A stretch of DNA of 64,000 nt from Marsupella aquatica (taxonomy: Eukaryota > Plantae > Marchantiophyta). The position numbers and the translations under genes are program-made. Location of the stretch: NCBI GenBank assembly GCA_973895155.1, contig OZ316893.1, positions 17,825,836 to 17,889,835 on the forward strand, read 5' to 3'. The first letter of the stretch is position 1; each line of letters begins with the position of its first letter. A model generated the notes under the pieces. That model saw only the letters and a list, made by a program, of their open reading frames with translations. It had not been told where the DNA came from and ran no database searches. Shown one piece after another: positions 5,104 through 61,334 of the stretch.

Positions 5104-5115
5104 GCTCTGATACCA
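5104..5115 (-). promoter_or_regulatory. Primer binding site (tRNA-iMet)
   Basis: Minus strand TGGTATCAGAGC lies 2 nt inside the 5' LTR. Confidence 0.95.
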
Positions 5116-5117
5116 AT

Positions 5118-5556
5118 TGTTGAGCATAGACGACGATCGCAACGGCAAGCCCATGAACCATCCAACGCACAATAGTCGACACAAGAGATACGTGGTTCAC
5201 CTCCTTGAGGCTACGTCCACGGGAACACACAAGAGAGCTTTACTGAACTCTAAGCCCGTCGGCTATACCGAGTCTTCACAGTGTAAGCTCTCCCTATCTC
5301 TCAAGTGGCTCCATAACAATGAGCCTTGGTTCTACCTCTCCAAGCACACATGCCTCTTATGATATAGTGTGCAACTTAGTTGTACCTAACCACATAGTTG
5401 TACCTAACCACATAGTTGTACCTAATCACGTAGTTGTACCTAACCACATAGTTGTACCTAATCACGTAGTTGTACCTAACCACGTAGTTGTACCAACCCA
5501 CGTTGTTGTACCAACCACGTCATACCTAACCTAGACGTAAGAGTAAATACCCAACA
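5118..5556 (-). repeat. Copia 5' LTR (439 bp) with 8 copies of the 18-bp unit
   Basis: It is 72 bp (4 x 18) longer than the other LTR. Outside the array I saw only one substitution (tctcca/tcttca). Confidence 0.97.
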
Positions 5557-6354
5557 GGTCCTTTGTTACCGACATTGGTTTTTGTGAAGCTGGAAGGTTC
5601 GCTACGTGTTTGTGATGGGAATGGGTTTGATATTTGCGATGTCATGAGGTTGGCAACTAGCGAGCCTTATAAGATCAGTCTTATGCAAAATAAATTTGGT
5701 GGGGACTTCCGATCTAAATTGGATCGGAACTTGTGAGTTGGTTTAGGCCAGAAGTTGTGAACCGTTTGACTTCGCAACTTGTGATGTTACTTGGTTCTAT
5801 AATAGCGATCCGAGTCATTTCAGTATTTCCTAGTTATCCAAGTTCCCAATGGGTTTGCACTTTCATGGGAACACGACTTTCAATCAATGTTTTGCGAGGG
5901 ATTTCTCTTGGCAGTGGACCCAATGTGGAAGGCAAATGTTTTTTATAAGATCCATGCAAGTATATAGGTTGATATACCAAAATGTTAGGGCTTGTGTGAC
6001 GGGTACCCCGTCACGGGAAGTCACACATAACTGGTTGCAAAGGCCGATACCTTGTTAATAGTCAATGTAAATAAGCCATTTTTTAATTTTTAGTTAATTC
6101 CGTCATTATAGGTTGATGATGCCCCAGGTGACTTTATATTCTTTCTCTCATAATAGTTCTAAGATTTGCGGCGACCTAAGTGGGCAAATATTTTGGGACC
6201 TTGAAACTAGCCAGGACCAGCCCCATAGGACTTACCGTTTTGCTTCAAGAGCTATTGTTGAGACCCCCATTGCAAAGTCAGGAGAGGGGGGGGTTTTTTT
6301 TTAAATAAATCCCTCCTCAGGAGGGCGAGTCCCATTAGTGGTCGTCCGAGAGAA

Positions 6355-6590
6355 AGAGGGGCTGCCTCGCGAGCCCATAGGGCTGCGTGCCCGGGCGATT
6401 AATGGGGCTCCGCGAGCTGAAGGGGCTGCCTCGCGAGCCCATAGGGCTGCGTGCCCGGGCAATTAATGAGGCTCCGCGAGCTGAAGGAGCGCAAGCGAGC
6501 GGGGGGGGGGGAGTTAAAGGGCCTCCCGCGAGCTGGGAGGATCACGCGAGCGGGGGGGAGTTGAAGGGCCTCCCGCGAGCCGGGAGGAAT
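6355..6590 (+). repeat. GC-rich tandem repeats in the LTR (two ~65-bp units, then ~47-bp units)
   Basis: ggggctgcctcgcgagcccatagggctgcgtgcccgggc occurs twice, followed by gcctcccgcgagctgggaggatcacgcgagcgggggggagttaaagg units. The 3' LTR has more copies (~16960-17280). Confidence 0.9.
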
Positions 6591-7011
6591 GGCCGCGCGC
6601 CCTGCATAGGGCCGCGCGCAGGAGGACGCAAGGGTAAGGCCCGAGAAATGGGCCGGGGCGCATGGCGAAGGCGCCAGGAGTTTTTTCGGTTCTATTTTTT
6701 TTTCCTTCCTTTTTCTTTCCCTCTTCCTTTTGCACGACCCTCTCATTGCCGAAAGCAAAAACGGGGTTCTTCTCTCTCTTGCCGGAAGCTCTCTCCAGAT
6801 TCTAATTATTTTTGAAGCTCTCTCTTTCATGGTGGATTAGTGGGGCTTGCTGGCGTCATTCTTCCAGGCATTAGTGGCGGCCGCACGGAGTAGTGACGGG
6901 AAATTGAGAGAATTTAAGTGATCGGGCTACGGGGGCTGTTTCGGGCCAGGGAATTGACATTGCCACGGGTGACGGGATTGGTGATTGAGAAATTGATTTC
7001 GGGATGCATGG

Positions 7012-8868
7012 ATGCTAGATCAACCAGAGTTTAGTGCGTCACGCATTCGGAGATACAAGGCTGCTTACCGTGACTACGTGGAGACTCGGATTACACGGGA
7101 AAGGGAAGAGAGAGAAGTTATGATGAGCACGGGATTGGCAGCGGGTTCCTCACCGGTGGGTAGGAAGATTTTTCGTCGAATTTATCCCAAGACCTCCACC
7201 AAGGTGATGGAGGATTGTCGGAACATTTTCCAAGCCACCGGGCTTACAGAATTCATGAAGGTGGAGATTACCATCCCTTCAGGGAAGAGCTGGGACATTG
7301 AGGCCGGGATGGAGTTCCGAACGGAGGGAATCTACTTTGAATGTCTCAAACGTGTAGTGCCCCATGTGGAGTTGGCTAAGCTATTGTTTCTTGAGAATCA
7401 GAAATTCTCATTCACACCTCGGAATATCAGGGGAGAACTCACGTTGAAAATGGTGGCCACTTGGGTGACCAATCCTACCTCCACCACCGCCATCCCTCTT
7501 TCTGCTGTCAAGGATGTTGAGTATAAGGGCTTCCTGGCCAAGGTGCATCAACGGGTTCTTGGCAACGTGCAATCCGGAGTGCTGAATGAGGAGCATTTCG
7601 TGGTAGCTATGGACATCAAGAACTACCCAGCCCATGTGTACGGATGGTGGTGCTACGGATTGAAGAAGCTATTGGCCGCTGAGCCCGGGAGTGTGAAACC
7701 AGGTGGGGCTGTACATTTGATGGGGTCATTTGTATTGGCCAGGGCAGAAGGGTTGATTGGTTCTCCGGGGCATGAAGACACGGGATCATCTCTCACCACG
7801 GAGATCCGGAGTATTGCCACTACCGTTTTAGGGAAGCTCACGGAGGAATCATTGTCTGCTGGTGGGGAGGATAATAGAGAAGAAGAGAACCAGGAGGATG
7901 ATTGCACATTGGAGTGGCTTGAATCACTCGTGGGAGATCCGAAACAGCCTCTGGAATACAACATTCCGGATGTTTACTTGGCAGAGCTACGGGATTTCAG
8001 AGAGGGAGTCCACGAGGGACTCAAGCTAGTCCACGCATTGAGGGAGTCTCTCAAGCACGCCACAGTCAAAGTAGAGACGTTAGAGCAGAGCATCCTGTCA
8101 CTGAAGGAGGTGATCAAGACCAAGGAGCAGACCATTCATGAGAAGGTCAGGCACATCAATGCAGCTCACGTAGAGATCACCAACTTGAAGGGAGCTTTGT
8201 CCACCAAGGCCAAGGAAGCAGAAGAAGTAGGAGCGTTGAGGCAAGCATTGGCCAAAGAGAAGCAAAATTCTGGAGAAGTGATGGAGTGGAGGAACCAGGT
8301 GGGAGCACTACGGAGTCAGGTGGCAGCCTTTGAGACACGAGCGAAGAGAAGTGAGGCCCTGAGTCTAGGGAAACGGAAGAGTCCCGGCACACCTGGCTCC
8401 ACACTTTCCCCGGATGTGATCTCCCAAGCTATCGAGATGGTGGTGAAGGAGGTTAGTGGGAAGTATGGACCCTTGTTGGATGGAGCCAAGAAGAGTCAGG
8501 AGAAGAGTAAGAGCTTGGAGAAGAAGCTCCGGGAGGTACGGAAATCGTTACGGGAGGCTCAGGTCAGTACGGGGATGCCACCCAGGTCTGTCACCCCCGG
8601 GACTCCCATGGCCACGGGGCAAGTTCTACCGTTGGAGTTGCGGTCCGGAGAAGAGGCTACCCTCTGGAAGGACACAATTGGTGAGGGGTACATCAAGGCG
8701 TGGCAGGCCTTGGCTGCTTTGAGGAAGCGCGGGAGCAGCAGCACTAAGAGTACTCCGTCGAAGAAGAAGAAAAGTACGGTGGCACTCACTCCCGTGAGTG
8801 ATGAGGAGGAGGACCACTCACGGGGCACAAGTCCGGGCACCGAGAGCGAAGAAGAAGAGGAGGATTAG
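7012..8868 (+). CDS. LTR-encoded 618-aa protein of unknown function (central coiled coil, basic NLS-like patch, acidic tail)
   Basis: Uninterrupted ATG-TAG ORF wholly inside the LTR, with heptad-rich segments (~aa 325-445 and 490-520), PSKKKK and a C-terminal ESEEEEED. Confidence 0.8.
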   Translation: MLDQPEFSASRIRRYKAAYRDYVETRITREREEREVMMSTGLAAGSSPVGRKIFRRIYPKTSTKVMEDCRNIFQATGLTEFMKVEITIPSGKSWDIEAGMEFRTEGIYFECLKRVVPHVELAKLLFLENQKFSFTPRNIRGELTLKMVATWVTNPTSTTAIPLSAVKDVEYKGFLAKVHQRVLGNVQSGVLNEEHFVVAMDIKNYPAHVYGWWCYGLKKLLAAEPGSVKPGGAVHLMGSFVLARAEGLIGSPGHEDTGSSLTTEIRSIATTVLGKLTEESLSAGGEDNREEENQEDDCTLEWLESLVGDPKQPLEYNIPDVYLAELRDFREGVHEGLKLVHALRESLKHATVKVETLEQSILSLKEVIKTKEQTIHEKVRHINAAHVEITNLKGALSTKAKEAEEVGALRQALAKEKQNSGEVMEWRNQVGALRSQVAAFETRAKRSEALSLGKRKSPGTPGSTLSPDVISQAIEMVVKEVSGKYGPLLDGAKKSQEKSKSLEKKLREVRKSLREAQVSTGMPPRSVTPGTPMATGQVLPLELRSGEEATLWKDTIGEGYIKAWQALAALRKRGSSSTKSTPSKKKKSTVALTPVSDEEEDHSRGTSPGTESEEEEED

Positions 8869-9999
8869 ATAGGCGTACGGACGTGGGTGTACGGCCTCCA
8901 GATTTCCAACATTTTAGTGGGGGGTCACTCATGGGCTTGTTGGGATGAGCTCGCGGAGCTGATTCCAACAAGAGGCGGCGCTCCTCAAACGGAGCCAGGA
9001 TGAGCAAGTTATGGCCTGGAGAACTTATGTTTTTGCGGTACGGAAACGGCCATAACTCAGGCGTCTGAAGTCCGTTGAGGGAGCGACTTAGTGATTCGGA
9101 AGCAGGAAAAGAAGAGCTATCCAGGGGTGAGCTCAGGTGTGCACTTGGAAGGGCACCTAGTTTCGGCCATTTTGGGGTGCCTCTCACTTTCAGGGTTCAC
9201 GTGTACTGTTGGGGCGCCGTCGAAGGCACCGTCGGCCCCCTTGTTTTGGGTTTAGGGTTTTAGCAGCATGTGTGTGCCGCATGCTCCTCTTCAGTTTAAG
9301 GATTTCTCTTAGTGCAAGGTTTTAGCGGCGCCGCTAGGGTAGCCGCCACCGTTGTGACCCTGTGAGGGGTGCTTTGGTGTGATTTTTCAGTATTTAGGGG
9401 GATAGCCCCGAAGTAGTTAGGGGGACTCAGTGTGAAGTTAGCAAGGAGGGATAGAGTGGAGCCTGAGGAGTTTGAAAGCGTGTTCAGAGTAGTGAGGGGG
9501 AGCCATACTCATTGTCCGGAGAGGCAGGAGTTGAGTAGACGGCAGGAGGCCGGGTTACTCATGCAATGTGTATCGTTTTTCCCAAGAGATATGGATCTGT
9601 ACATTTGACTTGATGGGCTTTTGTTGTGTGTTCCTTCTCCCTTTTTCGCTTTCCGAATTGTGTTCTCCCGTTCTATGATTTGAAGAAACTTGCTTGGTTT
9701 GAGTCGGCCTTGTGAGTAGGGGTGGTGACAGCACTCTTTGGGTGACTCCGAGTGAAGGTGTAGTGGGGTAGTCGGCAGGACTTGATCAAAAGCTGTGGGG
9801 TGAGGGTAGTCGGTAGACTTGATCAAAACCTACATTTCCGGGAGCGGAAACCAAAATACTCATCCTGGTGTGAAAAGAATCCAAATAGCGTCCCTCCACG
9901 ACCCCGTAATACGATACCAACGGTTTAAGCGAAGAAAAGTGCGGTTTGCACGTATTAACCGTTGGAGAGGCAAGTGACATAAGTGTGGTCTTTTGTTTT

Positions 10000-10017
10000 T
10001 GGCGCCGCTGCCGGGGA
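10000..10017 (+). promoter_or_regulatory. Primer binding site (tRNA-Asp type)
   Basis: TGGCGCCGCTGCCGGGGA, as in Athila-like elements, located 20 nt after the LTR-terminal CA. Confidence 0.8.
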
Positions 10018-10234
10018 ATCCTTCTTCTTGTTTGACGACACGAAGGAGGGGAGCTACGTCTATTGGGAGTTCAAACCTATCAACCACAACGCAACTTGCG
10101 ACGGTTGATACGTGAGAAGTTTGTTGGTTACTTTGTTATTGTACGTCAACCACAACGCATCGTGCGACGGTTGATGTTTACAAATATTGCTTTCTGAGAC
10201 ATTGGTGTAAGTTTGGAATGCAGGTCTCAATGGG

Positions 10235-13200
10235 ATGCCGAGAGGGAGAAGGGGAGGTAGAGGAAGTCCCCAACACACACGTACCCCAAGATCAGAGCTA
10301 GAAGGGGGGCCCTCTTGGATTGGGACCAGACGACGAGTTGCTGCCGAAGAACGCTTACGGCTTGCAGAAGAGAGGAGGTTGCCACTGGTGCTGGAAGAAC
10401 AAGTTGGTGTGCAACAGGAAGAGGCTCAACGTAATGAGGCCATATGCCCAGACGAAGAGCCAGACATAGATCACGAGCGAGAAGAAGGAGAGCCCTTTGT
10501 GTTGGTGCAGTCTGAGTTACAAAATCTGATCCCAGAGCTCACTGCATTGCCACAAATCATCTCACACCTATCATCGGTGCTGTTACCGGTGGCCCAACAA
10601 GCGCCATTACCACCTGTGTTGATACAGGCACCGGCTGCACCGATGGCAGCTGCACAACGTACCCGTGTTCAGTACGTACCCTTCAAGGGGAGACCAAAGG
10701 ATGATCCAGACGAATGGATTGAGGAGTTTGAAGGGATTGCCGAAGCTAATGGGGAGTCTGCACATAAGCTCACTATCATTCCTGGAATGATGAGAGGGGA
10801 GGCAGGTCCATGGTTCATTTCGTTGTTGGCCAACGTGAAAGCTGATTGGGCTCTGTTCAAGCAAGCCTTCTTGAAGGAGTTCAGATCCATAGGAGTGGAG
10901 GCCACCTCACTATTAAAGGTGGGCCAACTCAGGATGAAGAAGAAGGAGTCATTACGGAGGTTTTTGCAAAGGTTCCAAAAGCTGGTACGTCGGATCCAAG
11001 CCCGTACCGATGATGCTATGCGTCAAGCCTGGTTTGTGGCTGCCCTACCAAGCAAGATGGGGTTCTTTGTACGTCAAGCCAAGCCAACCACATTGGCTGA
11101 AGCTATTGCAGCAGCGGAGTCATACACCGCAGCTGATGCCACAAGCAAGCGTTGCCGAAGAAAGAAGCTGAAGCCGGTTGACAGTTCCTCCAGTGAGGAG
11201 TCGAGTGGATCTGATTCAGATAGTAGTGATGAATCTGAGGATTCTGAGAGTACTACAGAGTCAGACACTACGGAGTCAGAAGCTGAAAGACGAAGGAGGA
11301 AGAAGAAGAAGTTGTCAAAGAAAGTCAAGAAGTCCTCTCACCGTGAAGTGATACTACCCACGGTGGCCGTTACACCATTGTCTACGGCAAGACGCCTGAA
11401 GGAGCAAGAGGCCAGATATGATGAGCTGACGGAGCAAATGAAAGCGTTGAAAGTACATTTTGCCGGACTCAAACCTGAGAGGAGAAAAGTTCCGGTGGAG
11501 AGAGCCAATGTGTGGTGCACCAAGTGCATGAAGTTTGGTCATGCCCCGAAGGAGTGCCCAGCGGGAGAACCAGCCAAGGTTTTCCAAGTACGGGAGGAGG
11601 ATGTTGAGGGGGCAAGCTACTCAAATCCTTCATATGCAGCGGAAGGGCCAATAGAGTACTTCATGGAGGAGCCACCAGAGGCCAACGTGTATAGTGTACA
11701 ACCTCTCAACCCGGGACCACGGAGCATTCATGGAGTTTCAACAAACGCCGGAGCACCCGCATACTCCAACTATCCCAACGCTAACCCAGGGAATCGACCA
11801 CCGTACCCTGGAGTGAGGAAGATCCCTATTTGTTACAATTGTAGAGTGGCGGGCCACTACGCTAATGTGTGCCCAGAGCCCACCCGTCAAGGCAATGGAG
11901 ATTTTGCCCGGCTGTGTCAACTATGCAAGGGGGAGGGTCATCTTGCACCACACTGCCCAACCTTGGAGGCGTTCAAGGCTCAACCGATTGGGGCACAAGA
12001 GAAGAAGGGGCCGCCACCTCCTCTGAAAGAAGCTAGCGTCAACTTTCTCACCACGGAAGCAGTCGACACCCCTCTAATCACTAGAAGAGAAGAAACCGTA
12101 GTGAACATTCCCAAGCAAAGGATGACCACCATAACGGAGGAGGTGGTACCGCTAGTCGTTGTAGTATCTCCAGTTGTTGAGATACCGGTGGTTGTTGTTG
12201 CAACATCTACGGAAGTTGAAGTTGCTAACCCCTCACCCCCAAGTCATGAGTGGACTCATGCTGAGAATCTACCGGAGGAAGACAGCGACGAGGAGAGAAG
12301 GCATTACTCTTGTTACCGAGTCTCCACTCGATCCGGCAAAAAGAAGGGCAAGTCCGAGCTCAAGCAGAAGTACAAGGAGGTGCATCAAGCTTCCACATCG
12401 GGTACCTCACACGAACCGGAGGTGCCACCCATGGAGGATAGTGACTTTGATCGGGACAACCCCAAGTTGTTCTATCCGAAGGTGGGAGAAGAGGTACGTA
12501 AGCAGTTGGAGGAGCTAGAAGCACAAGCCATGCAAGCGGCCATTGACAAAGACATGGAGGAGGCAAAGGCCAGAAAGAAAGCGGAGGAGAGGGTTGTTCG
12601 TTGGAAACCGGGAGAAGAGGTCATCCCACCCATACCTCCTGCAACCGCGTACAACATTGCTCAAGACATTCTGGATTGCCCAGTCAGTGCCACAATTGGT
12701 CAACTATTACGGGATAGCTCCCTATACCGTCGCCAAGTCAAGGAGATTCTCATGAGGAGGAGACGTAGAAGAAGGTTACCCAAAGTTGGGGCTGACCCCA
12801 TACAAGTCAACTGGGTCACGGAGGATTTGGGTGCCCCAGAACTCACGGTGGACATCAATGGATGTGCAATACGGTTTGTACCGGTGGACGGGGGCTCGGG
12901 AGTCAACATCATGACTGAGGAGACGGCAAACCGGTTGGGGTATACAGAGTTAGAACCACCGGCACGTGCCATGAGGTTGGCTGATGGTGCACGGGTGGTG
13001 CCGTTGGGGTGTCTCACCAAGATTCCAACAATGATTGGGGGAAAATCTTTCCCCCTCAACTATTTGGTGATGCGACCCGTTCGGCCGTACGGTTTTCCCA
13101 TTTTAATTGGCAGGCCATGGTTGTATGTGGCCAAGGTCACAAGTGATTGGGGCAAACGGCAGTTTCGGTTTGGTATCCCCACTATCACTATTCCATGGTC

Positions 13201-16200
13201 AGCGGAGTCACCTCACGGGGAGACTACGACTATGGAGGAGGAATATGATTCAGAGGTCACCTCAGATGAAGACGAGGATGAAGTATACATGGTGAAACTG
13301 ATTTCTCACCTCACGGAGGAAGATGTTTTTGGCCCCGGAGTTGCTACTCAAGAGCATGCAGTAGAGGAATCAGTTAGCCAAGTGCACGCTGTTCTAGAAG
13401 AGATGGAAGACGAGCGAAGCAAAATTGTGGAGGCTGAACCTCTAGAGATTCATGATAGGGAGGCAGAGGATCACCCCGAGGAGGTGGAAATGCAAGCCCA
13501 CACGATCATGTTTGATGATGAGCAAAGAGAGCAGTTTTTGAATGACATCCTGGATGATGACTTTAGAGAGGAGCTATTGTCACATTACAAAGAATCTGAC
13601 GTTGAAGAAATAATGGCCCATGTGACAAAGGATCCACCTCCATCCCGACCAGACCAGGAGGAGAGTGATGCACCGGTGTATGGAGGGATGAGGCTCGCAC
13701 GGTTGGAAGAAACCTTTGATGAGGAGACACGCAACAAGTTGGACGTGATCAGGCCGGAGCAGTACACAAAGGTGGAAGTGGGTGAGGGCAAGACACTCAA
13801 CATTGGTAGTAAGTTGGATGCTACGGAGCAACGCACGATTCAGGAATTGTTGAAAGAGTACCAAGACGTATTTGCGTGGAGCCACCAAGATTTGAAAGGA
13901 GTGCCACCTGAGTTTGGTGAGCACAGCATTGACCTGATGTCAGGAGCACGACCTGTGAGGCAACGCCAATACCGCCTCAACCCCAAATACTCACTCATGG
14001 TGAAGGAGGAGATTGACCGTTTGTTGGATGCAGGATTCATTTATCCGGTCATGCATAGTGAGTGGGTGTCACCCATCGTAATCGTGCCCAAGAAAAAGGG
14101 GCCAGACGGGAAGGTGAAAATACGGGTGTGCCAAGATTTTCGAAAGTTGAATGATGCGACCAAGAAGGATCACTACCCGCTACCGTTCACGGATATCGTG
14201 TTGGACATGGTAGCAGGTTGGGAGATATACAGCTTCTTGGATGGCTACTCTGGGTACAACCAAATCTGGATACGGGAGGAGGACCAACTCAAGACGGCTT
14301 TCACAACAGAGTGGGGGATTTTTGCATTCCGGAGAATGCCTTTTGGGTTGTGCAATGCCCCTGGCATGTTCCAACGGCTCATGATGAATATATTTCATGA
14401 CTTTTTACGCAGGTTCTTGGAGATCTTTATTGATGACTTTGCTGTCTACGGCAAACGAGTCAAGCATCCGGAACACTTACGGTTGACTTTTCAGCGGTGC
14501 CGGGAGACTTGCCTGAAGCTGCATCCGGAGAAATGTTTCTTTGGAATTGAGGAGGGAATCCTATTGGGCCACAAAGTGTCTGCACGAGGGATTGAAGTTG
14601 ATCGTGAGAAGGTCGCCGTGTGGGTAGCAGTCTCATTTCCCAAGAATGTGAAGGAAGTGAGAGGGTTCTTGGGGTGTGTTGGCTACTACCGACGCTTCAT
14701 CAAAGACTTTGCCAAGGTAGCCATGCCACTCACTTCCATGTTGAAAAAAGGAAGTGAGTTTGAACCTACTCCTTCCCGTCAGGCTGCTTTTGATGAATTG
14801 AAGAAACGATTGCTAGAGGCCCCCGTGCTCATTACGCCCAATTGGAATAAGGAATTCCATGTTTACGTAGACGTATCAGGATTTTGCATCGGTGCCGTTT
14901 TGAGTCAGTTAGATGATGATGGAAGAGACCATCCCATCTACTTTGCCAGTAGGCAGTTGGCCCCGGCAGAGAAAAACTACTCACCCACCGATAGGGAGGC
15001 ACTTGGTATCATCTACGCTTGTAAGAAGTATCGTCATTATTTGTTGGGGTACAAGGTTGTGTTCCACACGGATCACAACAGCTTGAAATACATGGTCAAC
15101 AAGCCAGATCTGTCCGGGAGAATTGCACGTTGGGTTTTGTTGCTACAAGAGTTCAACTATGAGGTGAGAGTAAGATCGGGGAAGAGTCATAGCAATGCAG
15201 ACTTCTTCTCCCGTATTGAGGGAGCATCTGACTCCCAGGAGATTGATGATCGGTTCCCGGATGAGGAAGTGTTCAGCGTGAATACAGAGGCCACTACTTG
15301 GTATGGAGAAATTTTGGAATTTCTCCGCACGGCTAGAGTTCCCTCACGTTTGGGCCCGGAGAGAGCAGCAGTGTTTTTGCGTAAGACAGGTCCCTACTTG
15401 CTGGTGAAGGGAGTACTTCACAAGTACGGCATGGATGGCCGACTTCGTCGTTGTTTGGAGGAAGCGGAGATACGTACAGTCATGGCAGCATTACATGAGG
15501 AGGAAGCTGGTGGCCACTTTGCACGGGAGACCACCGCAAGGAAAATACTAGATGCTGGATATTGGTGGCCAACTCTCTTTCGGGATGTACACCGGTACAT
15601 CCAGCGATGTGATCCGTGCCAGCGTCAAGGCAAACCAGGGCCCTCCTCACGACACCCATTGGTGCCCATACTTCCTCTTGCACCCTTTGAGAAGTGGGGG
15701 GTGGACTTCATTGGCCCTTTCACTCCCATCACACGAAGAGGGAGGAAGCGCTACATCATTCTTGCAACGGACTATGCCACCAAGTGGGTGGAGGCCCGAG
15801 CTACTGCCAAGGATGATGCCAACACCACGGCACGTTTTTTGTATGAGCAGATTTTTACACGATTTGGTCCACCATTGGAGTTGGTAAGTGACAGGGGTAC
15901 TCACTTCCTCAATCATACGATTGAACGTTTGACGGAGAACTACTTGATCTCACATAGGAAGACCACTCCGTACCACCCTCGAGCCAACGGGCTCACTGAG
16001 AGAGCCAACGGGATCATGGGCAAGATCCTCAACAAAACGGTATCCGCTCACAAGACCGATTGGGATTTGAAGTTGTTGGCTGCCACTTACGCTTACAACC
16101 TGGCTCACAAGACTACCACGGGCCACAGCCCCTATTTCCTTGTGTTTGGACAACACTCTCTTGTGCCGGTGGAATTTGAGGTTCCAACCATTCGAATCCT

Positions 16201-16633
16201 AACACGGGAAAGGGAAGGGGCAGAAGAAAGTGTCGCTTCACGGATCCAACAGTTGGAGCAACTCACGGAGACACGAGAAGAGGCTTTGACACATACGGAG
16301 CAGGAGCAAGGCAAACGCAAGTCACATTACGATTCCCGTCTCCGTCGTGTGTCCATTGAGGAGGGAGATTTGGTGCTCCTCTACGATAGCCGCTTCATGC
16401 ATTTCCCCGGGAAGTTGCATACACGGTGGATGGGACCCTACGTAGTGGATGCCGTCTACTCCAACGGCTCGGTTCAACTCAAGACATTGGAGGGGCAACT
16501 ACTCAACACACGGATCAATCAAGAGCGCCTAAAGAAGTACTACACGGAGGAAGAGTATGGTGCTCGCGGGGGCGCTTCGCAATTAAGAGAGGAGCTATGT
16601 GACGGGTACCCCGTCACGGGAAGTCACACATAA
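10235..16633 (+). CDS. Gypsy Gag-Pol polyprotein (2132 aa)
   Basis: Gag, three CCHC knuckles (CTKCMKFGHAPKEC, CYNCRVAGHYANVC, CQLCKGEGHLAPHC), protease VDGGSGVN, RT FLDGYSGYNQI and IFIDDF, RNase H, integrase HHCC plus D-D-E (WGVDF, SDRGTHF, NGLTER) and GPY. No chromodomain. The stop codon lies inside the 3' LTR. Confidence 0.97.
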   Translation: MPRGRRGGRGSPQHTRTPRSELEGGPSWIGTRRRVAAEERLRLAEERRLPLVLEEQVGVQQEEAQRNEAICPDEEPDIDHEREEGEPFVLVQSELQNLIPELTALPQIISHLSSVLLPVAQQAPLPPVLIQAPAAPMAAAQRTRVQYVPFKGRPKDDPDEWIEEFEGIAEANGESAHKLTIIPGMMRGEAGPWFISLLANVKADWALFKQAFLKEFRSIGVEATSLLKVGQLRMKKKESLRRFLQRFQKLVRRIQARTDDAMRQAWFVAALPSKMGFFVRQAKPTTLAEAIAAAESYTAADATSKRCRRKKLKPVDSSSSEESSGSDSDSSDESEDSESTTESDTTESEAERRRRKKKKLSKKVKKSSHREVILPTVAVTPLSTARRLKEQEARYDELTEQMKALKVHFAGLKPERRKVPVERANVWCTKCMKFGHAPKECPAGEPAKVFQVREEDVEGASYSNPSYAAEGPIEYFMEEPPEANVYSVQPLNPGPRSIHGVSTNAGAPAYSNYPNANPGNRPPYPGVRKIPICYNCRVAGHYANVCPEPTRQGNGDFARLCQLCKGEGHLAPHCPTLEAFKAQPIGAQEKKGPPPPLKEASVNFLTTEAVDTPLITRREETVVNIPKQRMTTITEEVVPLVVVVSPVVEIPVVVVATSTEVEVANPSPPSHEWTHAENLPEEDSDEERRHYSCYRVSTRSGKKKGKSELKQKYKEVHQASTSGTSHEPEVPPMEDSDFDRDNPKLFYPKVGEEVRKQLEELEAQAMQAAIDKDMEEAKARKKAEERVVRWKPGEEVIPPIPPATAYNIAQDILDCPVSATIGQLLRDSSLYRRQVKEILMRRRRRRRLPKVGADPIQVNWVTEDLGAPELTVDINGCAIRFVPVDGGSGVNIMTEETANRLGYTELEPPARAMRLADGARVVPLGCLTKIPTMIGGKSFPLNYLVMRPVRPYGFPILIGRPWLYVAKVTSDWGKRQFRFGIPTITIPWSAESPHGETTTMEEEYDSEVTSDEDEDEVYMVKLISHLTEEDVFGPGVATQEHAVEESVSQVHAVLEEMEDERSKIVEAEPLEIHDREAEDHPEEVEMQAHTIMFDDEQREQFLNDILDDDFREELLSHYKESDVEEIMAHVTKDPPPSRPDQEESDAPVYGGMRLARLEETFDEETRNKLDVIRPEQYTKVEVGEGKTLNIGSKLDATEQRTIQELLKEYQDVFAWSHQDLKGVPPEFGEHSIDLMSGARPVRQRQYRLNPKYSLMVKEEIDRLLDAGFIYPVMHSEWVSPIVIVPKKKGPDGKVKIRVCQDFRKLNDATKKDHYPLPFTDIVLDMVAGWEIYSFLDGYSGYNQIWIREEDQLKTAFTTEWGIFAFRRMPFGLCNAPGMFQRLMMNIFHDFLRRFLEIFIDDFAVYGKRVKHPEHLRLTFQRCRETCLKLHPEKCFFGIEEGILLGHKVSARGIEVDREKVAVWVAVSFPKNVKEVRGFLGCVGYYRRFIKDFAKVAMPLTSMLKKGSEFEPTPSRQAAFDELKKRLLEAPVLITPNWNKEFHVYVDVSGFCIGAVLSQLDDDGRDHPIYFASRQLAPAEKNYSPTDREALGIIYACKKYRHYLLGYKVVFHTDHNSLKYMVNKPDLSGRIARWVLLLQEFNYEVRVRSGKSHSNADFFSRIEGASDSQEIDDRFPDEEVFSVNTEATTWYGEILEFLRTARVPSRLGPERAAVFLRKTGPYLLVKGVLHKYGMDGRLRRCLEEAEIRTVMAALHEEEAGGHFARETTARKILDAGYWWPTLFRDVHRYIQRCDPCQRQGKPGPSSRHPLVPILPLAPFEKWGVDFIGPFTPITRRGRKRYIILATDYATKWVEARATAKDDANTTARFLYEQIFTRFGPPLELVSDRGTHFLNHTIERLTENYLISHRKTTPYHPRANGLTERANGIMGKILNKTVSAHKTDWDLKLLAATYAYNLAHKTTTGHSPYFLVFGQHSLVPVEFEVPTIRILTREREGAEESVASRIQQLEQLTETREEALTHTEQEQGKRKSHYDSRLRRVSIEEGDLVLLYDSRFMHFPGKLHTRWMGPYVVDAVYSNGSVQLKTLEGQLLNTRINQERLKKYYTEEEYGARGGASQLREELCDGYPVTGSHT
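16585..16597 (+). promoter_or_regulatory. Polypurine tract of the Gypsy element
   Basis: aagagaggagcta lies immediately before the 3' LTR, inside pol coding sequence. Confidence 0.8.
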
Positions 16634-19600
16634 CTGGTTGCAAAGGCCGATACCTTGTTAATAGTCAATGTAAATAAGCCATTTTTTAATTTTTAGTTAA
16701 TTCCGTCATTATAGGTTGATGATGCCCCAGGTGACTTTATATTCTTTCTCTCATAATAGTTCTAAGATTTGCGGCGACCTAAGTGGGCAAATATTTTGGG
16801 ACCTTGAAACTAGCCAGGACCAGCCCCATAGGACTTACCGTTTTGCTTCAAGAGCTATTGTTGAGACCCCCATTGCAAAGTCAGGAGAGGGGGGGGTTTT
16901 TTTTTAAATAAATCCCTCCTCAGGAGGGCGAGTCCCATTAGTGGCCGTCCGAGAGAAAGAGGGGCTGCCTCGCGAGCCCATAGGGCTGCGTGCCCGGGCG
17001 ATTAATGGGGCTCCGCGAGCTGAAGGGGCTGCCTCGCGAGCCCATAGGGCTGCGTGCCCGGGCAATTAATGAGGTCCCGCGAGCTGGGAGGATCACGCGA
17101 GCGGGGGGAGTTAAAGGGCCTCCCGCGAGCTGGGAGGATCACGCGAGCGGGGGGGAGTTAAAGGGCCTCCCGCGAGCTGGGAGGATCACGCGAGCGGGGG
17201 GGAGTTAAAGGGCCTCCCGCGAGCTGGGAGGATCACGCGAGCGGGGGGGAGTTGAAGGGCCTCCCGCGAGCCGGGAGGAATGGCCGCGCGCCCTGCATAG
17301 GGCCGCGCGCAGGAGGACGCAAGGGTAAGGCCCGAGAAATGGGCCGGGGCGCATGGCGAAGGCGCCAGGAGTTTTTTCGGTTCTATTTTTTTTTCCTTCC
17401 TTTTTCTTTCCCTCTTCCTTTTGCACGACCCTCTCATTGCCGAAAGCAAAAACGGGGTTCTTCTCTCTCTTGCCGGAAGCTCTCTCCAGATTCTAATTAT
17501 TTTTGAAGCTCTCTCTTTCATGGTGGATTAGTGGGGCTTGCTGGCGTCATTCTTCCAGGCATTAGTGGCGGCCGCACGGAGTAGTGACGGGAAATTGAGA
17601 GAATTTAAGTGATCGGGCTACGGGGGCTGTTTCGGGCCAGGGAATTGACATTGCCACGGGTGACGGGATTGGTGATTGAGAAATTGATTTCGGGATGCAT
17701 GGATGCTAGATCAACCAGAGTTTAGTGCGTCACGCATTCGGAGATACAAGGCTGCTTACCGTGACTACGTGGAGACTCGGATTACACGGGAAAGGGAAGA
17801 GAGAGAAGTTATGATGAGCACGGGATTGGCAGCGGGTTCCTCACCGGTGGGTAGGAAGATTTTTCGTCGAATTTATCCCAAGACCTCCACCAAGGTGATG
17901 GAGGATTGTCGGAACATTTTCCAAGCCACCGGGCTTACAGAATTCATGAAGGTGGAGATTACCATCCCTTCAGGGAAGAGCTGGGACATTGAGGCCGGGA
18001 TGGAGTTCCGAACGGAGGGAATCTACTTTGAATGTCTCAAACGTGTAGTGCCCCATGTGGAGTTGGCTAAGCTATTGTTTCTTGAGAATCAGAAATTCTC
18101 ATTCACACCTCGGAATATCAGGGGAGAACTCACGTTGAAAATGGTGGCCACTTGGGTGACCAATCCTACCTCCACCACCGCCATCCCTCTTTCTGCTGTC
18201 AAGGATGTTGAGTATAAGGGCTTCCTGGCCAAGGTGCATCAACGGGTTCTTGGCAACGTGCAATCCGGAGTGCTGAATGAGGAGCATTTCGTGGTAGCTA
18301 TGGACATCAAGAACTACCCAGCCCATGTGTACGGATGGTGGTGCTACGGATTGAAGAAGCTATTGGCCGCTGAGCCCGGGAGTGTGAAACCAGGTGGGGC
18401 TGTACATTTGATGGGGTCATTTGTATTGGCCAGGGCAGAAGGGTTGATTGGTTCTCCGGGGCATGAAGACACGGGATCATCTCTCACCACGGAGATCCGG
18501 AGTATTGCCACTACCGTTTTAGGGAAGCTCACGGAGGAATCATTGTCTGCTGGTGGGGAGGATAATAGAGAAGAAGAGAACCAGGAGGATGATTGCACAT
18601 TGGAGTGGCTTGAATCACTCGTGGGAGATCCGAAACAGCCTCTGGAATACAACATTCCGGATGTTTACTTGGCAGAGCTACGGGATTTCAGAGAGGGAGT
18701 CCACGAGGGACTCAAGCTAGTCCACGCATTGAGGGAGTCTCTCAAGCACGCCACAGTCAAAGTAGAGACGTTAGAGCAGAGCATCCTGTCACTGAAGGAG
18801 GTGATCAAGACCAAGGAGCAGACCATTCATGAGAAGGTCAGGCACATCAATGCAGCTCACGTAGAGATCACCAACTTGAAGGGAGCTTTGTCCACCAAGG
18901 CCAAGGAAGCAGAAGAAGTAGGAGCGTTGAGGCAAGCATTGGCCAAAGAGAAGCAAAATTCTGGAGAAGTGATGGAGTGGAGGAACCAGGTGGGAGCACT
19001 ACGGAGTCAGGTGGCAGCCTTTGAGACACGAGCGAAGAGAAGTGAGGCCCTGAGTCTAGGGAAACGGAAGAGTCCCGGCACACCTGGCTCCACACTTTCC
19101 CCGGATGTGATCTCCCAAGCTATCGAGATGGTGGTGAAGGAGGTTAGTGGGAAGTATGGACCCTTGTTGGATGGAGCCAAGAAGAGTCAGGAGAAGAGTA
19201 AGAGCTTGGAGAAGAAGCTCCGGGAGGTACGGAAATCGTTACGGGAGGCTCAGGTCAGTACGGGGATGCCACCCAGGTCTGTCACCCCCGGGACTCCCAT
19301 GGCCACGGGGCAAGTTCTACCGTTGGAGTTGCGGTCCGGAGAAGAGGCTACCCTCTGGAAGGACACAATTGGTGAGGGGTACATCAAGGCGTGGCAGGCC
19401 TTGGCTGCTTTGAGGAAGCGCGGGAGCAGCAGCACTAAGAGTACTCCGTCGAAGAAGAAGAAAAGTACGGTGGCACTCACTCCCGTGAGTGATGAGGAGG
19501 AGGACCACTCACGGGGCACAAGTCCGGGCACCGAGAGCGAAGAAGAAGAGGAGGATTAGATAGGCGTACGGACGTGGGTGTACGGCCTCCAGATTTCCAA

Positions 19601-20670
19601 CATTTTAGTGGGGGGTCACTCATGGGCTTGTTGGGATGAGCTCGCGGAGCTGATTCCAACAAGAGGCGGCGCTCCTCAAACGGAGCCAGGATGAGCAAGT
19701 TATGGCCTGGAGAACTTATGTTTTTGCGGTACGGAAACGGCCATAACTCAGGCGTCTGAAGTCCGTTGAGGGAGCGACTTAGTGATTCGGAAGCAGGAAA
19801 AGAAGAGCTATCCAGGGGTGAGCTCAGGTGTGCACTTGGAAGGGCACCTAGTTTCGGCCATTTTGGGGTGCCTCTCACTTTCAGGGTTCACGTGTACTGT
19901 TGGGGCGCCGTCGAAGGCACCGTCGGCCCCCTTGTTTTGGGTTTAGGGTTTTAGCAGCATGTGTGTGCCGCATGCTCCTCTTCAGTTTAAGGATTTCTCT
20001 TAGTGCAAGGTTTTAGCGGCGCCGCTAGGGTAGCCGCCACCGTTGTGACCCTGTGAGGGGTGCTTTGGTGTGATTTTTCAGTATTTAGGGGGATAGCCCC
20101 GAAGTAGTTAGGGGGACTCAGTGTGAAGTTAGCAAGGAGGGATAGAGTGGAGCCTGAGGAGTTTGAAAGCGTGTTCAGAGTAGTGAGGGGGAGCCATACT
20201 CATTGTCCGGAGAGGCAGGAGTTGAGTAGACGGCAGGAGGCCGGGTTACTCATGCAATGTGTATCGTTTTTCCCAAGAGATATGGATCTGTACATTTGAC
20301 TTGATGGGCTTTTGTTGTGTGTTCCTTCTCCCTTTTTCGCTTTCCGAATTGTGTTCTCCCGTTCTATGATTTGAAGAAACTTGCTTGGTTTGAGTCGGCC
20401 TTGTGAGTAGGGGTGGTGACAGCACTCTTTGGGTGACTCCGAGTGAAGGTGTAGTGGGGTAGTCGGCAGGACTTGATCAAAAGCTGTGGGGTGAGGGTAG
20501 TCGGTAGACTTGATCAAAACCTACATTTCCGGGAGCGGAAACCAAAATACTCATCCTGGTGTGAAAAGAATCCAAATAGCGTCCCTCCACGACCCCGTAA
20601 TACGATACCAACGGTTTAAGCGAAGAAAAGTGCGGTTTGCACGTATTAACCGTTGGAGAGGCAAGTGACA
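16598..20670 (+). repeat. Gypsy 3' LTR (4073 bp)
   Basis: It is 88 bp longer than the 5' LTR because of the GC-rich array and is otherwise near-identical. Confidence 0.93.
17703..19559 (+). CDS. LTR-encoded 618-aa coiled-coil protein (second copy)
   Basis: Translation is identical to 7012-8868. Confidence 0.8.
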   Translation: MLDQPEFSASRIRRYKAAYRDYVETRITREREEREVMMSTGLAAGSSPVGRKIFRRIYPKTSTKVMEDCRNIFQATGLTEFMKVEITIPSGKSWDIEAGMEFRTEGIYFECLKRVVPHVELAKLLFLENQKFSFTPRNIRGELTLKMVATWVTNPTSTTAIPLSAVKDVEYKGFLAKVHQRVLGNVQSGVLNEEHFVVAMDIKNYPAHVYGWWCYGLKKLLAAEPGSVKPGGAVHLMGSFVLARAEGLIGSPGHEDTGSSLTTEIRSIATTVLGKLTEESLSAGGEDNREEENQEDDCTLEWLESLVGDPKQPLEYNIPDVYLAELRDFREGVHEGLKLVHALRESLKHATVKVETLEQSILSLKEVIKTKEQTIHEKVRHINAAHVEITNLKGALSTKAKEAEEVGALRQALAKEKQNSGEVMEWRNQVGALRSQVAAFETRAKRSEALSLGKRKSPGTPGSTLSPDVISQAIEMVVKEVSGKYGPLLDGAKKSQEKSKSLEKKLREVRKSLREAQVSTGMPPRSVTPGTPMATGQVLPLELRSGEEATLWKDTIGEGYIKAWQALAALRKRGSSSTKSTPSKKKKSTVALTPVSDEEEDHSRGTSPGTESEEEEED

Positions 20671-58949: not shown

Positions 58950-61334
58950 TGTCATGTCGTCGGCTTCGGCCTCAACTCAGACTTCAGCTTAGACGGGCAC
59001 ATCCCTCGTAAATCTGAGGGTTCGGGCAGGAAGGGAAGCACGTAATGCACCTTATTCTCATAAACTAGCGCTAAGTGCGCATACTACTAAATACGAACAC
59101 CTCCTAGGTATGGTTTGTGTTCCGCCGCCGGAACGTACCTTAGTCGATAGCAGGATCGACCCCGGCTTAAGGGCTTCTAAGCCTTCGTGCTGTCCGCCTT
59201 CGATCCGGATTCGATGATATAGGTCCTCAACCCGTGCTTGCAACCACTTACCCGCAGGCTACACCCTGTGCACGTCTCGGGTAGTGCGTTCGGCCTGGCG
59301 CTGCCACCCATATACGAGAAACCCACACACATACACGCGCACATGCATACAATCTCGATTTACACGAAGGAAAATGATGGGAAAGGATTTTACTACAAAG
59401 GGAACATATGCGTACACTTAGTTGACCCGACAGCCCCGGAATGAACAGGTTCAAGGCCGAGGGTGCACACTACAACGGAGCCCGGCTCCGCACTTGCCCG
59501 GCGAGCTTAGTCCTACCCCCCCACCCTTGGTACTCTTTCATTCCCAGAGGTCGGGACTCCCCGCACATACCGCGGACGTCCAACTCTGAAACTAAAAACC
59601 CCCCTGCCTCTACCAAGGGGTGCACTAAATACTAAGGGCCGAGGGACGGGGTGTCCTCTCGCCGAAGATTCGCTGACTAAGGTCCTAACTAAGCTGACAG
59701 TCAGGCCGGAAACGGCTGTGTCTTATTAGAAGATCCTAATCTATGCAGGCTAGACAGCATGGCAGCGATGCTGTACCTAAGGTAGGTGCCTGTCCCAAGA
59801 GCCTGACTAAGCTAGTCCTAATCCTAATCTATTCCTACTCCGCCGCTAATGCCTGGCACGCTTGCCAGAGTCGCCTCAATGGGAGCGGCCATCCCACTGC
59901 CTTCAAAGCCTATCATTGTCCGCCTTGAGGAGCTGGACCTGGTCCAGCAGAGATTCGTTCTCTCGCCTCGCCGCGTCCATCTCCTCTGCTGCCTCCTGAC
60001 ATGCCTCCTCCAGCTGCTGGGCGTCGCTCGTCAGTTTACCCGCCAGCTGGTCCTGCTTCTCGGCCTCGGTTTGGAGCCGCACCACCTCGGCCTGCAGCGT
60101 GGCTATCTCCGCCGTGTCCCGCTGGGCCCGTTCCTTGGCCTCCTCCAGGTCTTTCTGCCAGGTGACAGTTTGATTCTTCAAACTGTCAATCTGGTTCCGG
60201 AGTCGTGTAATCTCGGCCTTGTTCCCAACTTTGGCCTGTTCGGCTAGGGCGGTAAGAGCGTGCGCCTTTGCTAACAACTCATCGGCGGTTGCAACCTTGG
60301 GTCGTAGTTGCCGAAGCTTAGCCTCTTGAGCCGCAACTTTGTTCTTTAGGTACACGGACTCCACCCGGTACCGCTCTATCCTCTGAAGGGCCTCTGACTG
60401 GGCCCGACCTGCCGAGTTCCCCTGAAGCTCTGTAGGTGCTGGTAGAAGTTCTCCAAAGCGAGTGCAGACGACCTTGTCGAACGGGTAGTGCTGGACTCGC
60501 TGTTGATGATAGCCCGAACCTGAGCAGGGATGTGGTCGAAGTGATGTCGTTGCAAGTCGATCGTACCCGGGATATTGAAGACCTCGTCTGGAAGCCGAAG
60601 CAATGCTTCCCAGAACCCGATATATTTGTCTCCGTTGAAGAAGTACCCAGATACTTCTCCTGGTCGGTAAAGCTTGCTCTGAGACGGGTAGTCAAAGTTA
60701 AGGATGTAGTGGTGTCATCCTGCTAGGCAGATGGCTCTCTCGTACTCGCATTCGATTTTGTATGGGTGCGGGTTGGCGTGTTTCAATGAGTCGGCCAAGT
60801 GCCTTCCGGTAGATAGGAACTACGTCCAGAATCGAATGGCCGAGCTGGAGAGGATCGTGTGCGACATTCAGAGGAGATAGTAGTGGCAACTTAGAGCGAA
60901 CGAGAGAGCTAGGGTCGAAGCTGGCGCGTGGACTGATGGACTGGTGCACTACAAAGGGTTGGCTCCCCTTTTATACCTTGAGGGCTTGTCGATCCTCCGA
61001 CGTCTCCTCGACGCCCATAGGCTGAACCGCTCATGCTTGTGGTGTACCGGCCACTCCGCCGGTCTGAGTCAGCGCGTGTCAGTGGCCGCTTCCTTAAGTT
61101 CGTTATACGGACCCGAGGGAGGGGCCCCTCCACGCTCGTAACCCGGGTGTGCGAATAGCGACCCGCCGCCAGTCCGAACCTGAATTCCCCCTTATTGCCT
61201 AATGATGTCCTACCCATAATGATTACCTAAATACTGTCGTTATGCTAATAATAGCGGCCTAAGACACTCCTAACGCGTGTGCTGAGCGCAGTTAGACCGA
61301 ATCACTCATTAACCGCCGTACCGGCGGCGTCACA
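58950..61334 (-). repeat. Putative 3' LTR (~2.4 kb)
   Basis: Starts TGTGAC after the PPT and ends ...CATGACA where the host gag frame resumes. The partner LTR is outside the window. Confidence 0.7.
59903..60867 (-). pseudogene. LTR-internal coiled-coil ORF of the second Gypsy (degraded)
   Basis: ATG at 60867, ~100 nt after TATAAAA (60975-60969). The reconstructed frame has two probable C>T stops and one frameshift (~60420). The C-terminal 150 aa are strongly heptad (KNKVAAQEAKLRQL...LLDQVQLLKADNDRL). Confidence 0.65.

What the first reader, a model, noticed from the sequence alone, without database searches (positions are those of the whole stretch)
7012..8868. A 618-aa intact protein gene located entirely inside a 4-kb LTR
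Seen: the ORF is inside both LTRs, in sense orientation and identical in both. Known: extra ORFs of plant Athila/Tat/Ogre elements lie in the internal region, whereas LTR-resident genes are known mainly from retroviruses (MMTV sag in U3). Inferred: the element carries two doses and every solo LTR would retain an expressible gene. The coiled coil, NLS-like patch and acidic tail suggest a nuclear scaffold, transactivator or anti-silencing factor. I see no transmembrane segment, so it is not env-like.
Basis: partly seen in the sequence, partly recalled or inferred. Interest (0 to 1): 0.78.

Follow-up and report, generated by a model that had tools for sequence, protein, structure and literature searches.

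The report
Accessory gene inside plant retrotransposon LTRs
A very young gypsy-type jumping gene carries, inside both of its 4-kb end repeats, an intact 618-residue extra gene whose variants are mostly silent; the gene in the same slot of related elements is predicted to fold like the plant anti-silencing protein VANC21, so this one likely helps the element keep its own DNA switched on.

Summary
Confirmed. The 618-aa ORF lies wholly inside true LTRs (5995-9979, 16598-20670) of an intact Athila-like Ty3/gypsy element and is identical in both. There is a tRNA-Asp-type PBS, a purine tract and one gag-pol ORF, but no target-site duplication. Sequence variants indicate purifying selection (25 silent, 6 replacement among 31 shown). 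Named homologues come from the liverwort Calypogeia fissa.

The layout is not unique. Five related metagenome elements also have a long sense ORF behind the LTR-start motif, and one relative appears to hold that ORF family in the internal region between two purine tracts. The gene has therefore probably crossed the LTR boundary.

A confident model of the relatives' N-terminal domain best matches VANC21 bound to DNA (Z 7.3, 201 residues; moderate). The window protein links to it only indirectly: same slot, collinear predicted helices, weak ATHILA/Transposase_32 lead. Profile comparison failed.

Best reading: an Athila/PMD/VANC-fold nuclear accessory protein, likely acting on CG-rich repeats in its own LTR (about 50%). 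Expression, U3 versus R position and solo LTRs are untested. The scan noted LTR-resident ORFs before in other genomes (fungal gypsy elements among them).

The parts
5995..9979 (+). 5' LTR, 3985 bp, TGT...ACA
6357..6590 (+). CG-rich tandem repeats upstream of the ORF (64-bp unit x2, then about two 47-bp units); 7 sites of the word CGCGAG (either strand) cluster here; candidate binding or enhancer sites (inferred)
7012..8868 (+). Extra ORF, copy 1, 618 aa (P0001)
7168..7755 (+). Conserved N-terminal globular domain (about residues 53-248); likely Athila ORF1/Transposase_32/PMD/VANC-type helical fold (inferred)
   Evidence: via relatives
7939..8571 (+). Long predicted coiled coil (about residues 310-520)
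8737..8865 (+). Basic patch (NLS-like) followed by acidic tail
10000..10017 (+). Primer-binding site, tRNA-Asp type (17 of 18 letters as the FIDEL/Athila PBS), 20 nt behind the LTR end
10235..16633 (+). Single gag-pol ORF, 2132 aa: gag, CCHC knuckles, protease, RT, RNase H, integrase; no chromodomain or second RNase H hit; its last 12 codons run into the 3' LTR
16564..16597 (+). Conserved motif plus polypurine tract abutting the 3' LTR
16598..20670 (+). 3' LTR, 4073 bp
16960..17279 (+). Tandem repeats of the 3' LTR (64 bp x2; 47 bp x4.4), more units than in the 5' LTR
17703..19559 (+). Extra ORF, copy 2, identical to copy 1
58950..61334 (-). Probable 3' LTR of a second, related gypsy element (70% pol identity) with the same boundary motif, a TATA box and a different, broken coiled-coil ORF (about 60867-59903); only one LTR is in the window and its far end is inferred

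Best explanation
This is a recently inserted, intact Athila-like gypsy retrotransposon whose extra gene sits inside both LTRs and shows mostly silent variation, and whose protein is likely a VANC/PMD/Athila-fold, coiled-coil DNA-binding factor that would bind the CG-rich tandem repeats of its own LTR and keep the element unsilenced. Shown: LTR anatomy, two identical gene copies, silent-biased variation, and the same layout in related elements. Inferred, step by step: (1) The LTR starts where the polypurine tract ends. The lineage seems to have two layouts, gene before or gene after the tract in use, so a change of tract would move the gene between the internal region and the LTR; reverse transcription then copies it into both LTRs. 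(2) The gene has its own promoter upstream and a U-rich end region downstream, so it would be a self-contained unit, most likely in U3 (about 60%) or in a very long R (about 35%). Every LTR, solo LTRs included, could then supply it in trans. (3) The N-terminal domain would read a short family-specific word, the coiled coil would oligomerise it, and the basic patch and acidic tail would take it to the nucleus and act on chromatin, as VANC does for VANDAL transposons.
For: Anatomy. Selection: of the 31 variant sites shown inside the ORF (40 rows shown, 153 hidden), 25 are silent and 6 replacement; 25 of 31 fall on third positions; pN/pS 0.07-0.10, P<1e-8. The 2 listed indels inside the ORF are 3-nt and the 2 outside are 1-nt. 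Homologues at 22-59% identity cover the protein's length (13 hits); the 4 named ones are Calypogeia fissa proteins. Layout in relatives: the boundary motif follows pol directly in 6 of 19 loci (L001, L002, L003, L006, L008, L014), and a sense ORF of one family starts 454-660 nt behind it in five of them. In L001 and L003 that start is the inverted repeat of the LTR end before the PBS (9/9 and 12/13 letters). In L004 the same ORF family lies between a first purine tract and this motif. Fold: the model of the relatives' domain is confident (pLDDT 83.9, pTM 0.83). Its best match among 48,161 chains is VANC21 with target DNA, 9lnk_A, Z 7.3, 201 aligned, rmsd 4.1, 14% identity; the next is Z 4.5 over 60 residues. 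Ten helices of the window protein's model recur in the same order at offsets of 32-40 residues; a structure-aided alignment beat 60 of 60 segment shuffles. The language-model neighbours of residues 40-255 are ATHILA (0.84, Pfam on 17% of members) and Transposase_32 (0.83, 56%) clusters, and of the whole protein PMD and Transposase_28 clusters (0.77-0.78). PMC13547354 (sections 10, 11) reports VANC structurally homologous to MAIN, and VANC and the Athila domain forming coiled-coil pentamers in silico. VANC targets form copy-number-variable tandem repeats (PMC5735166, section 9). Here CGCGAG sites cluster in repeats whose copy number differs between the two LTRs (9 counts against 0.54 expected upstream of the ORF; 2 sites in 36 kb elsewhere), and related families are enriched for other CG words.
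Against: The window protein has no significant sequence link to the relatives' ORF family: hhalign probability 0.1%, E 0.78; trimmed profiles scored below their shuffles (53 of 60 shuffles as high); sequence-only alignment 58 of 60 as high. No Pfam hit to ATHILA, Transposase_32, PMD or the VANC domains at E up to 10. Its own model is poor (pLDDT 47), and VANC21 is not among its 50 listed matches. Z 7.3 is within the range that the tool says helical models can reach by common arrangement. Atlas scores under 0.9 are leads only. The helix-order test uses a low-confidence model and one home-made setting. Tandem repeats in LTRs are common and inflate word counts by themselves; in L001/L003/L006 the enriched word runs through coding DNA too, and the second window element shows no strong CG word. 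No target-site duplication, so this copy may be a recombinant or a mis-joined assembly. One contig skips 385 nt of the ORF, so damaged copies exist. L004 is a collapsed circular contig with one LTR, so its internal position is inferred from motifs, and the tree does not give the direction of the shift. No canonical TATA box precedes the window ORF.
Confidence: 0.5

Rival explanations
1. Same gene, same Athila/PMD-type fold, but another nuclear job: a decoy or partner of the host MAIN/MAIL1-type silencing complex, or a tether that steers integration or holds the element at particular chromatin, without sequence-specific demethylation.
For: A shared fold shows no function (tool note). The fold is shared with host MAIN, which promotes silencing (PMC13547354 section 10). 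PMD, Transposase_28 and Athila ORF1 proteins are common extra ORFs with no known function (PMC6317226 passages). The N-domain is only mildly basic (26 K/R, 19 D/E).
Against: Family-specific CG-containing words and copy-number-variable repeats in the LTR resemble VANC target arrays, and selection for an LTR position suits a factor acting in trans on the element's own DNA (inference).
Confidence: 0.27
2. The window protein is unrelated to the relatives' ORF family. It is an independently acquired gene that acts on RNA or particles (export of unspliced RNA, particle scaffold, silencing suppressor).
For: No significant profile match between the two families. A third, again dissimilar coiled-coil ORF occupies the slot in the second window element. 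Plant extra ORFs fall into 314 groups and were probably acquired many times (PMC6317226 passage).
Against: Collinear predicted helices and a structure-aided alignment above all 60 shuffles; the same domain-coil-acidic-tail build in L002 and L006; Atlas neighbours are transposon extra-ORF families in both searches.
Confidence: 0.17
3. The repeats are a segmental duplication or an assembly artefact, or the ORF is a one-off captured host gene or nested insertion that was passively copied.
For: No target-site duplication; the ORF-bearing parts of the two repeats are identical over 3475 bp, as collapsed or mis-joined repeats would be.
Against: The repeats start exactly behind a conserved polypurine motif and end before a PBS. 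They differ in repeat number and one base. 308 contigs of one run lie on the ORF region, 206 of them under 95% alike, with silent-biased changes. Related elements have the same layout.
Confidence: 0.04

Closest known systems
Athila-lineage Ty3/gypsy elements with a 3' extra ORF (Athila ORF1 PF03078 / Transposase_32 PF20167, the so-called env-like region)
   Same: tRNA-Asp PBS, single gag-pol ORF, no chromodomain or archaeal RNase H hit, long LTRs, a sense extra ORF 3' of pol; Atlas neighbours of the N-domain belong to these families.
   Different: The extra ORF lies inside both LTRs, not in the internal region where PMC7264820 and PMC6317226 place extra ORFs; no Pfam hit; no transmembrane segment; no TSD at this copy; placement in the Athila clade not tested.
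VANC anti-silencing proteins of VANDAL (Mutator-like) transposons, e.g. VANC21 (PDB 9lnk)
   Same: Best fold match of the relatives' domain; helical domain plus coiled coil; short words in copy-number-variable tandem repeats of non-coding element DNA (PMC5735166).
   Different: VANC is encoded by DNA transposons of eudicots; no sequence or Pfam match; the fold match is for relatives, not for the window protein's own poor model; no binding or demethylation shown.
PMD ORFs of Ogre and Transposase_28 (TRP28) ORFs of Retand/Grande
   Same: Extra ORFs of non-chromovirus elements, predicted nuclear and DNA-binding, often with coiled coils; weak Atlas neighbours.
   Different: Those are internal and mostly antisense, in Tat elements with an extra RNase H; this one is sense, LTR-resident, in an element without one.
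MMTV sag (ORF in U3 of a retroviral LTR; recalled, not read here)
   Same: A whole gene inside the LTR, present twice per element.
   Different: Animal retrovirus, short membrane protein; no sequence or functional relation.

Membership tests
LTR retrotransposon, Ty3/gypsy | Two direct terminal repeats TG...CA with PBS behind the first and PPT before the second | tested here: met
LTR retrotransposon, Ty3/gypsy | gag-PR-RT-RH-IN order | tested here: met
LTR retrotransposon, Ty3/gypsy | 4-6-bp target-site duplication at a clean insertion | tested here: not met
   flanks GCTTG and CCAAC differ; points to a recombinant or mis-joined copy, not to a different class
Athila (non-chromovirus, OTA) | PBS for tRNA-Asp (72% of Athila in PMC6317226 supplementary table) | tested here: met
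   17 of 18 letters as the FIDEL PBS; the same PBS in L001, L003, L004
Athila (non-chromovirus, OTA) | No chromodomain and no additional archaeal RNase H | tested here: met
   Pfam finds one RNase H stretch and no chromodomain in P0002 at E up to 0.1
Athila (non-chromovirus, OTA) | RT-RH-INT groups inside the Athila clade | not testable with these tools
   no reference Athila, Phygy or Selgy sequences were on hand; one search holds only window and metagenome rows. Filed as Athila-like only
Athila (non-chromovirus, OTA) | Extra ORF, where present, in the internal region between pol and the 3' LTR | tested here: not met
   pol runs into the 3' LTR; the ORF is inside the LTR
Tat (TatI-III, Ogre, Retand) | Additional archaeal RNase H domain | tested here: not met
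Phygy / Selgy | PBS for tRNA-Trp (Phygy) or tRNA-Ala (Selgy); no extra ORF; short elements | tested here: not met
   Asp-type PBS, 14.7-kb element with extra ORF
Athila ORF1 / Transposase_32 / PMD domain families | Pfam match above the curated cut-off | tested here: not met
   no hit at E up to 10 for the window domain, its homologues or the relatives' domain
Athila ORF1 / Transposase_32 / PMD domain families | Shared fold or remote homology | tested here: inconclusive
   Atlas 0.83-0.84, 0.77-0.78; no predicted-structure library of cellular proteins was on hand
VANC anti-silencing proteins | VANC sequence domains (DUF1985, DUF287) in a Mutator-like element | tested here: not met
   the host element is a retrotransposon
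VANC anti-silencing proteins | VANC21-like fold | tested here: inconclusive
   relatives' domain Z 7.3, 201 aligned, rmsd 4.1; window model too poor to test
VANC anti-silencing proteins | Sequence-specific binding to element repeats and loss of DNA methylation | not testable with these tools
   only candidate repeats seen
env-like ORFs | Transmembrane segment | tested here: not met
   maximum 19-residue hydropathy 1.09

The most novel reading that the evidence does not exclude
A lineage of early-land-plant Athila-like retrotransposons has moved a VANC-type, sequence-specific anti-silencing gene into its LTR, next to the gene's own target repeats. Each LTR, solo LTRs included, is then an autonomous promoter-gene-target module that keeps the family unmethylated in trans. 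It would also mean that the long-puzzling 'env-like' Athila extra proteins, PMD and VANC are one superfamily of transposon chromatin regulators far older than eudicots.
Probability: 0.3. Interest if true: 0.88.

Novelty: new variant of a known kind. Interest (0 to 1): 0.66.

Why it matters
Plant LTRs are treated as non-coding, and the surveys read here place extra ORFs in the internal region. A selected 1.9-kb gene inside the LTR changes what a solo LTR is: a possible live gene left behind after recombination. The function of extra ORFs in plant gypsy elements is a long-standing open question. The fold match of this lineage's ORF to VANC21 turns it into a concrete test (does a retrotransposon encode a sequence-specific anti-silencing factor?), with candidate target repeats a few hundred bases from the gene. 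The two layouts in close relatives also offer a natural case of how an LTR boundary moves over a gene.

Tried and rejected
No whole genome is held for the window, so solo LTRs and full-length copies could not be counted. Word-index protein searches found nothing; one search covered only 30-37-residue proteins because the gappy alignment had few match columns. The ORF protein itself found no relatives in metagenome contigs, and the integrase none in viral contigs. Fold searches with the poor window model gave nothing meaningful (BFVD, PDB Foldseek, VIA); the relatives' model found nothing in BFVD. PDB sequence searches gave only coiled-coil or chance hits. Profile comparison of the two ORF families was negative. 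No RNA holder was listed, which says nothing on expression; read coverage was seen only for 6860-9230, so conservation of the LTR's upstream part across runs is open. Depth values are not copy numbers and were not used as such. The bacterial promoter scan is not relevant to a plant element. Env-like role rejected (no membrane segment). Segmental duplication rejected (PBS, PPT, internal gag-pol). U5 position considered unlikely, because the U-rich end-like region lies behind the ORF. Tree rows L010 and L011 were mostly unfilled and are no reliable root; L012-L019 were left out of the tree. Wright and Voytas 2002 was not held, so the recalled report of two polypurine tracts around the Athila extra ORF is unchecked. 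Steinbauerova 2011 was not read. No complex prediction was run.

Full report
1. Observation. The ORF at 7012-8868 (+) encodes 618 aa and recurs letter for letter at 17703-19559. It lies inside direct repeats of 3985 bp (5995-9979) and 4073 bp (16598-20670) that begin TGT and end ACA. Outside one tandem-repeat patch the repeats differ at 1 site in about 3950 bp, so the copy is very young; no rate is at hand for a date. In 300 shuffles of the LTR the longest open frame reached 319 codons at most.

2. The repeats are LTRs. An 18-nt primer-binding site lies 20 nt behind the first repeat (10000-10017) and matches the tRNA-Asp PBS printed for the Athila-group element FIDEL in 17 of 18 letters. Between the repeats lies one 2132-aa ORF with gag, CCHC knuckles, protease, RT, RNase H and integrase in gypsy order, with no chromodomain or second RNase H hit. 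A purine tract abuts the second repeat, and pol reads 12 codons into it. By the lineage table of PMC6317226 (supplement MOESM5) this fits Athila (Asp PBS 72%, no extra domain) and not Phygy (Trp), Selgy (Ala) or Tat (extra RNase H). I had no reference sequences for a tree, so I call it Athila-like only. Against a clean insertion: there is no target-site duplication, so this copy may be a recombinant or mis-joined.

3. The gene is under selection. Contigs of 4 runs were laid on 6860-9230. In run X1, 308 contigs fit: 70 at 99% or more, 32 at 95-99%, 115 at 90-95% and 91 under 90%. The table showed 40 variant rows and hid 153; 31 shown rows lie in the ORF. Taken one at a time, 25 are silent and 6 change the residue; 25 of 31 are third positions; expected silent share 0.23-0.29; pN/pS 0.07-0.10; P<1e-8. 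The variants are unphased and are the best-supported rows only. Both listed indels in the ORF are 3 nt, and both outside are 1 nt. One contig skips 385 nt, so damaged copies also exist. A scan of 1.84 billion proteins gave 13 homologues covering the N-domain, coil and tail at 22-59% identity. Of 9 looked up, the 4 with names are Calypogeia fissa proteins, which suggests a liverwort or related host (inference).

4. The layout is shared, and variable. An integrase search of metagenomes gave 19 loci. A motif ending in purines and TGT, the same that precedes the window's 3' LTR, follows pol directly in L001, L002, L003, L006, L008 and L014 and in both gypsy elements of the window. In L001 and L003, which also hold the end of the 5' LTR and the PBS, that start is the inverted repeat of the LTR end (9/9 and 12/13 letters). 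A sense ORF of one family starts 454-660 nt behind the motif in L001 (cut by the contig end), L002 (774 aa), L003 (start only), L006 (630 aa) and L008 (broken); no second motif follows it in L002 or L006, which run 0.9-1.1 kb past the stop. No locus holds two whole LTRs, so double dosage is shown only for the window element. In L004, a collapsed circular contig, the same family (25-37% identity, E down to 1e-37) lies between a first purine tract and this motif, followed by about 1 kb of non-coding DNA and the PBS. L009 has the ORF but ends too early to place it, and L005 ends before it. The integrase tree separates L004/L005/L009 from the rest with moderate support (87/86) and gives no direction. 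The simplest reading is that the gene can lie before or after the purine tract in use. Since that tract sets the LTR's first base (established mechanism of plus-strand priming), a change of tract moves the gene into or out of the LTR. The second window element has a third, broken and dissimilar coiled-coil ORF in the same slot behind a TATA box.

5. U3 or R. TATA-like boxes followed by pyrimidine-rich DNA lie 224-231 nt before the ATG in L003 and L008. The window element has a pyrimidine-rich tract upstream of the ATG but no canonical TATA. U-rich stretches lie behind the ORF. L003 and L004 have a further TATA box 152 and 99 nt before the LTR end. This suits a self-contained gene in U3, with the genomic promoter near the LTR end (about 60%). 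A very long R holding the gene is not excluded (about 35%). No RNA data were available.

6. What the protein is. Pfam, PDB sequence and word searches name nothing but generic coiled coils. There is no membrane segment. The build is: globular domain (about 53-248), acidic linker, coiled coil, basic patch, acidic tail. Language-model neighbours are transposon extra-ORF families in both searches: PMD and Transposase_28 for the whole protein (0.77-0.78), ATHILA and Transposase_32 for residues 40-255 (0.83-0.84); these are leads only. The relatives' domain folds confidently (pLDDT 83.9), and its best match among 48,161 solved chains is VANC21 with its target DNA (Z 7.3, 201 residues, rmsd 4.1; next Z 4.5 over 60). 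The tool warns that Z under 8 can be common arrangement, but this hit covers the whole domain and fits PMC13547354, which reports VANC as a structural homologue of MAIN and models VANC and the Athila domain as coiled-coil pentamers. The weak link is between the window protein and the relatives. Profile comparison is negative (sequence-only test in 115), and the window model is poor (pLDDT 47) and does not list VANC21. In favour: ten helices recur in order at a near-constant offset, and an alignment that uses them beats 60 of 60 segment shuffles (66.7 against a maximum of 65.9). I put a common fold at about 75%.

7. How it likely works. VANC proteins bind short motifs that accumulate in fast-changing tandem repeats of their own element and remove methylation (PMC5735166, abstract and section 9). 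Here 7 CGCGAG sites cluster 372-580 nt into the LTR, in 64- and 47-bp repeats whose number differs between the two LTRs; 36 kb of other window DNA holds 2. Related families are enriched for other CG words: TCCGGA in L001, L003 and L006, related CCGG words in L002, AGCGCT in L004. Repeats inflate such counts by themselves, and the second window element shows no such word, so this is suggestive only. The model: each LTR transcribes the gene, the protein oligomerises through its coil, enters the nucleus, binds the LTR repeats and keeps the family's promoters active, in trans. Anatomy and selection are shown; transcription, binding and anti-silencing are inferred.

8. Known and new. Extra ORFs are common in plant gypsy elements, but the review PMC7264820 (parts 1-2 of 3 read, all main text) and the survey PMC6317226 (passages, two supplements) describe them in the internal region only. 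Ten searches listed no title or abstract opening on a plant LTR-resident gene or a VANC-like retrotransposon protein; only some of the listed papers were opened. PMC12844716 (passages) calls such proteins in Athila an open question. Also read as passages: PMC1142308, PMC2844528, PMC11728184, PMC11963269, PMC12859917 and bioRxiv 10.64898/2026.09.17.752431 (nothing on this). Subscription papers, Steinbauerova 2011, Wright and Voytas 2002, the large supplements of PMC6317226 and the supplements of PMC13547354 were not seen and may bear on novelty. MMTV sag is recalled. Earlier notes of this scan describe LTR-resident ORFs in other genomes, fungal gypsy elements among them; none matched this sequence.

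9. Verdict. A real, selected gene inside the LTRs of an Athila-like element, in a layout shared by related elements: a new variant of a known kind. Confidence in the anatomy and selection is about 0.93, and in the VANC-like mechanism about 0.5. Interest 0.66.

Noticed in passing
window 58950-64000 (-): Second gypsy element, 70% pol identity to the first, with the same LTR-start motif and a different, broken coiled-coil ORF in its probable 2.4-kb LTR; it sits next to a gag/protease-like fragment of a third element (58750-57575).
   Followed up: partly
window 86-5556 (-): A copia element (gag, integrase Pfam hits) with LTRs of about 450 bp that contain an 18-bp tandem repeat, 3.9 copies in one and 8.1 in the other; it ends about 440 bp before the gypsy element.
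   Followed up: no
window 23982-31666, with related pieces at 47964-48388, 50462-54413 and 54962-56903: A repeated, divergently arranged cassette. The + strand has a large ORF pair that looks like a Mutator-type transposase with a SWIM-like Cys/His end (recalled motifs, no Pfam hit). The - strand has a multi-exon gene with a ParB-like DGNHR motif (recalled) and a weak N6/N4 DNA-methylase hit (E 0.09-0.11). Possibly a DNA transposon family carrying a methyltransferase.
   Followed up: partly
L001, L002, L003, L006 (whole loci): TCCGGA and related CCGG words are strongly over-represented throughout these elements, coding regions included (41 against 3.6 expected in L001 gag-pol; 23 against 1.1 in the L003 LTR end).
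   Followed up: partly
window 9980-9999: The PBS is 20 nt from the LTR end, against 5 nt reported for Diaspora and Calypso and about 5-11 nt in L001, L003 and L004; how the LTR end is trimmed is unexplained.
   Followed up: no
window 10219-10225: A plant-type splice-acceptor-like site lies just before the gag start; a 20-nt word is repeated twice in the leader behind the PBS.
   Followed up: no
window 36570-36929 (+): Fragment resembling the E/E+ end of a PLS-class pentatricopeptide-repeat protein (recalled pattern), consistent with a land-plant host.
   Followed up: no
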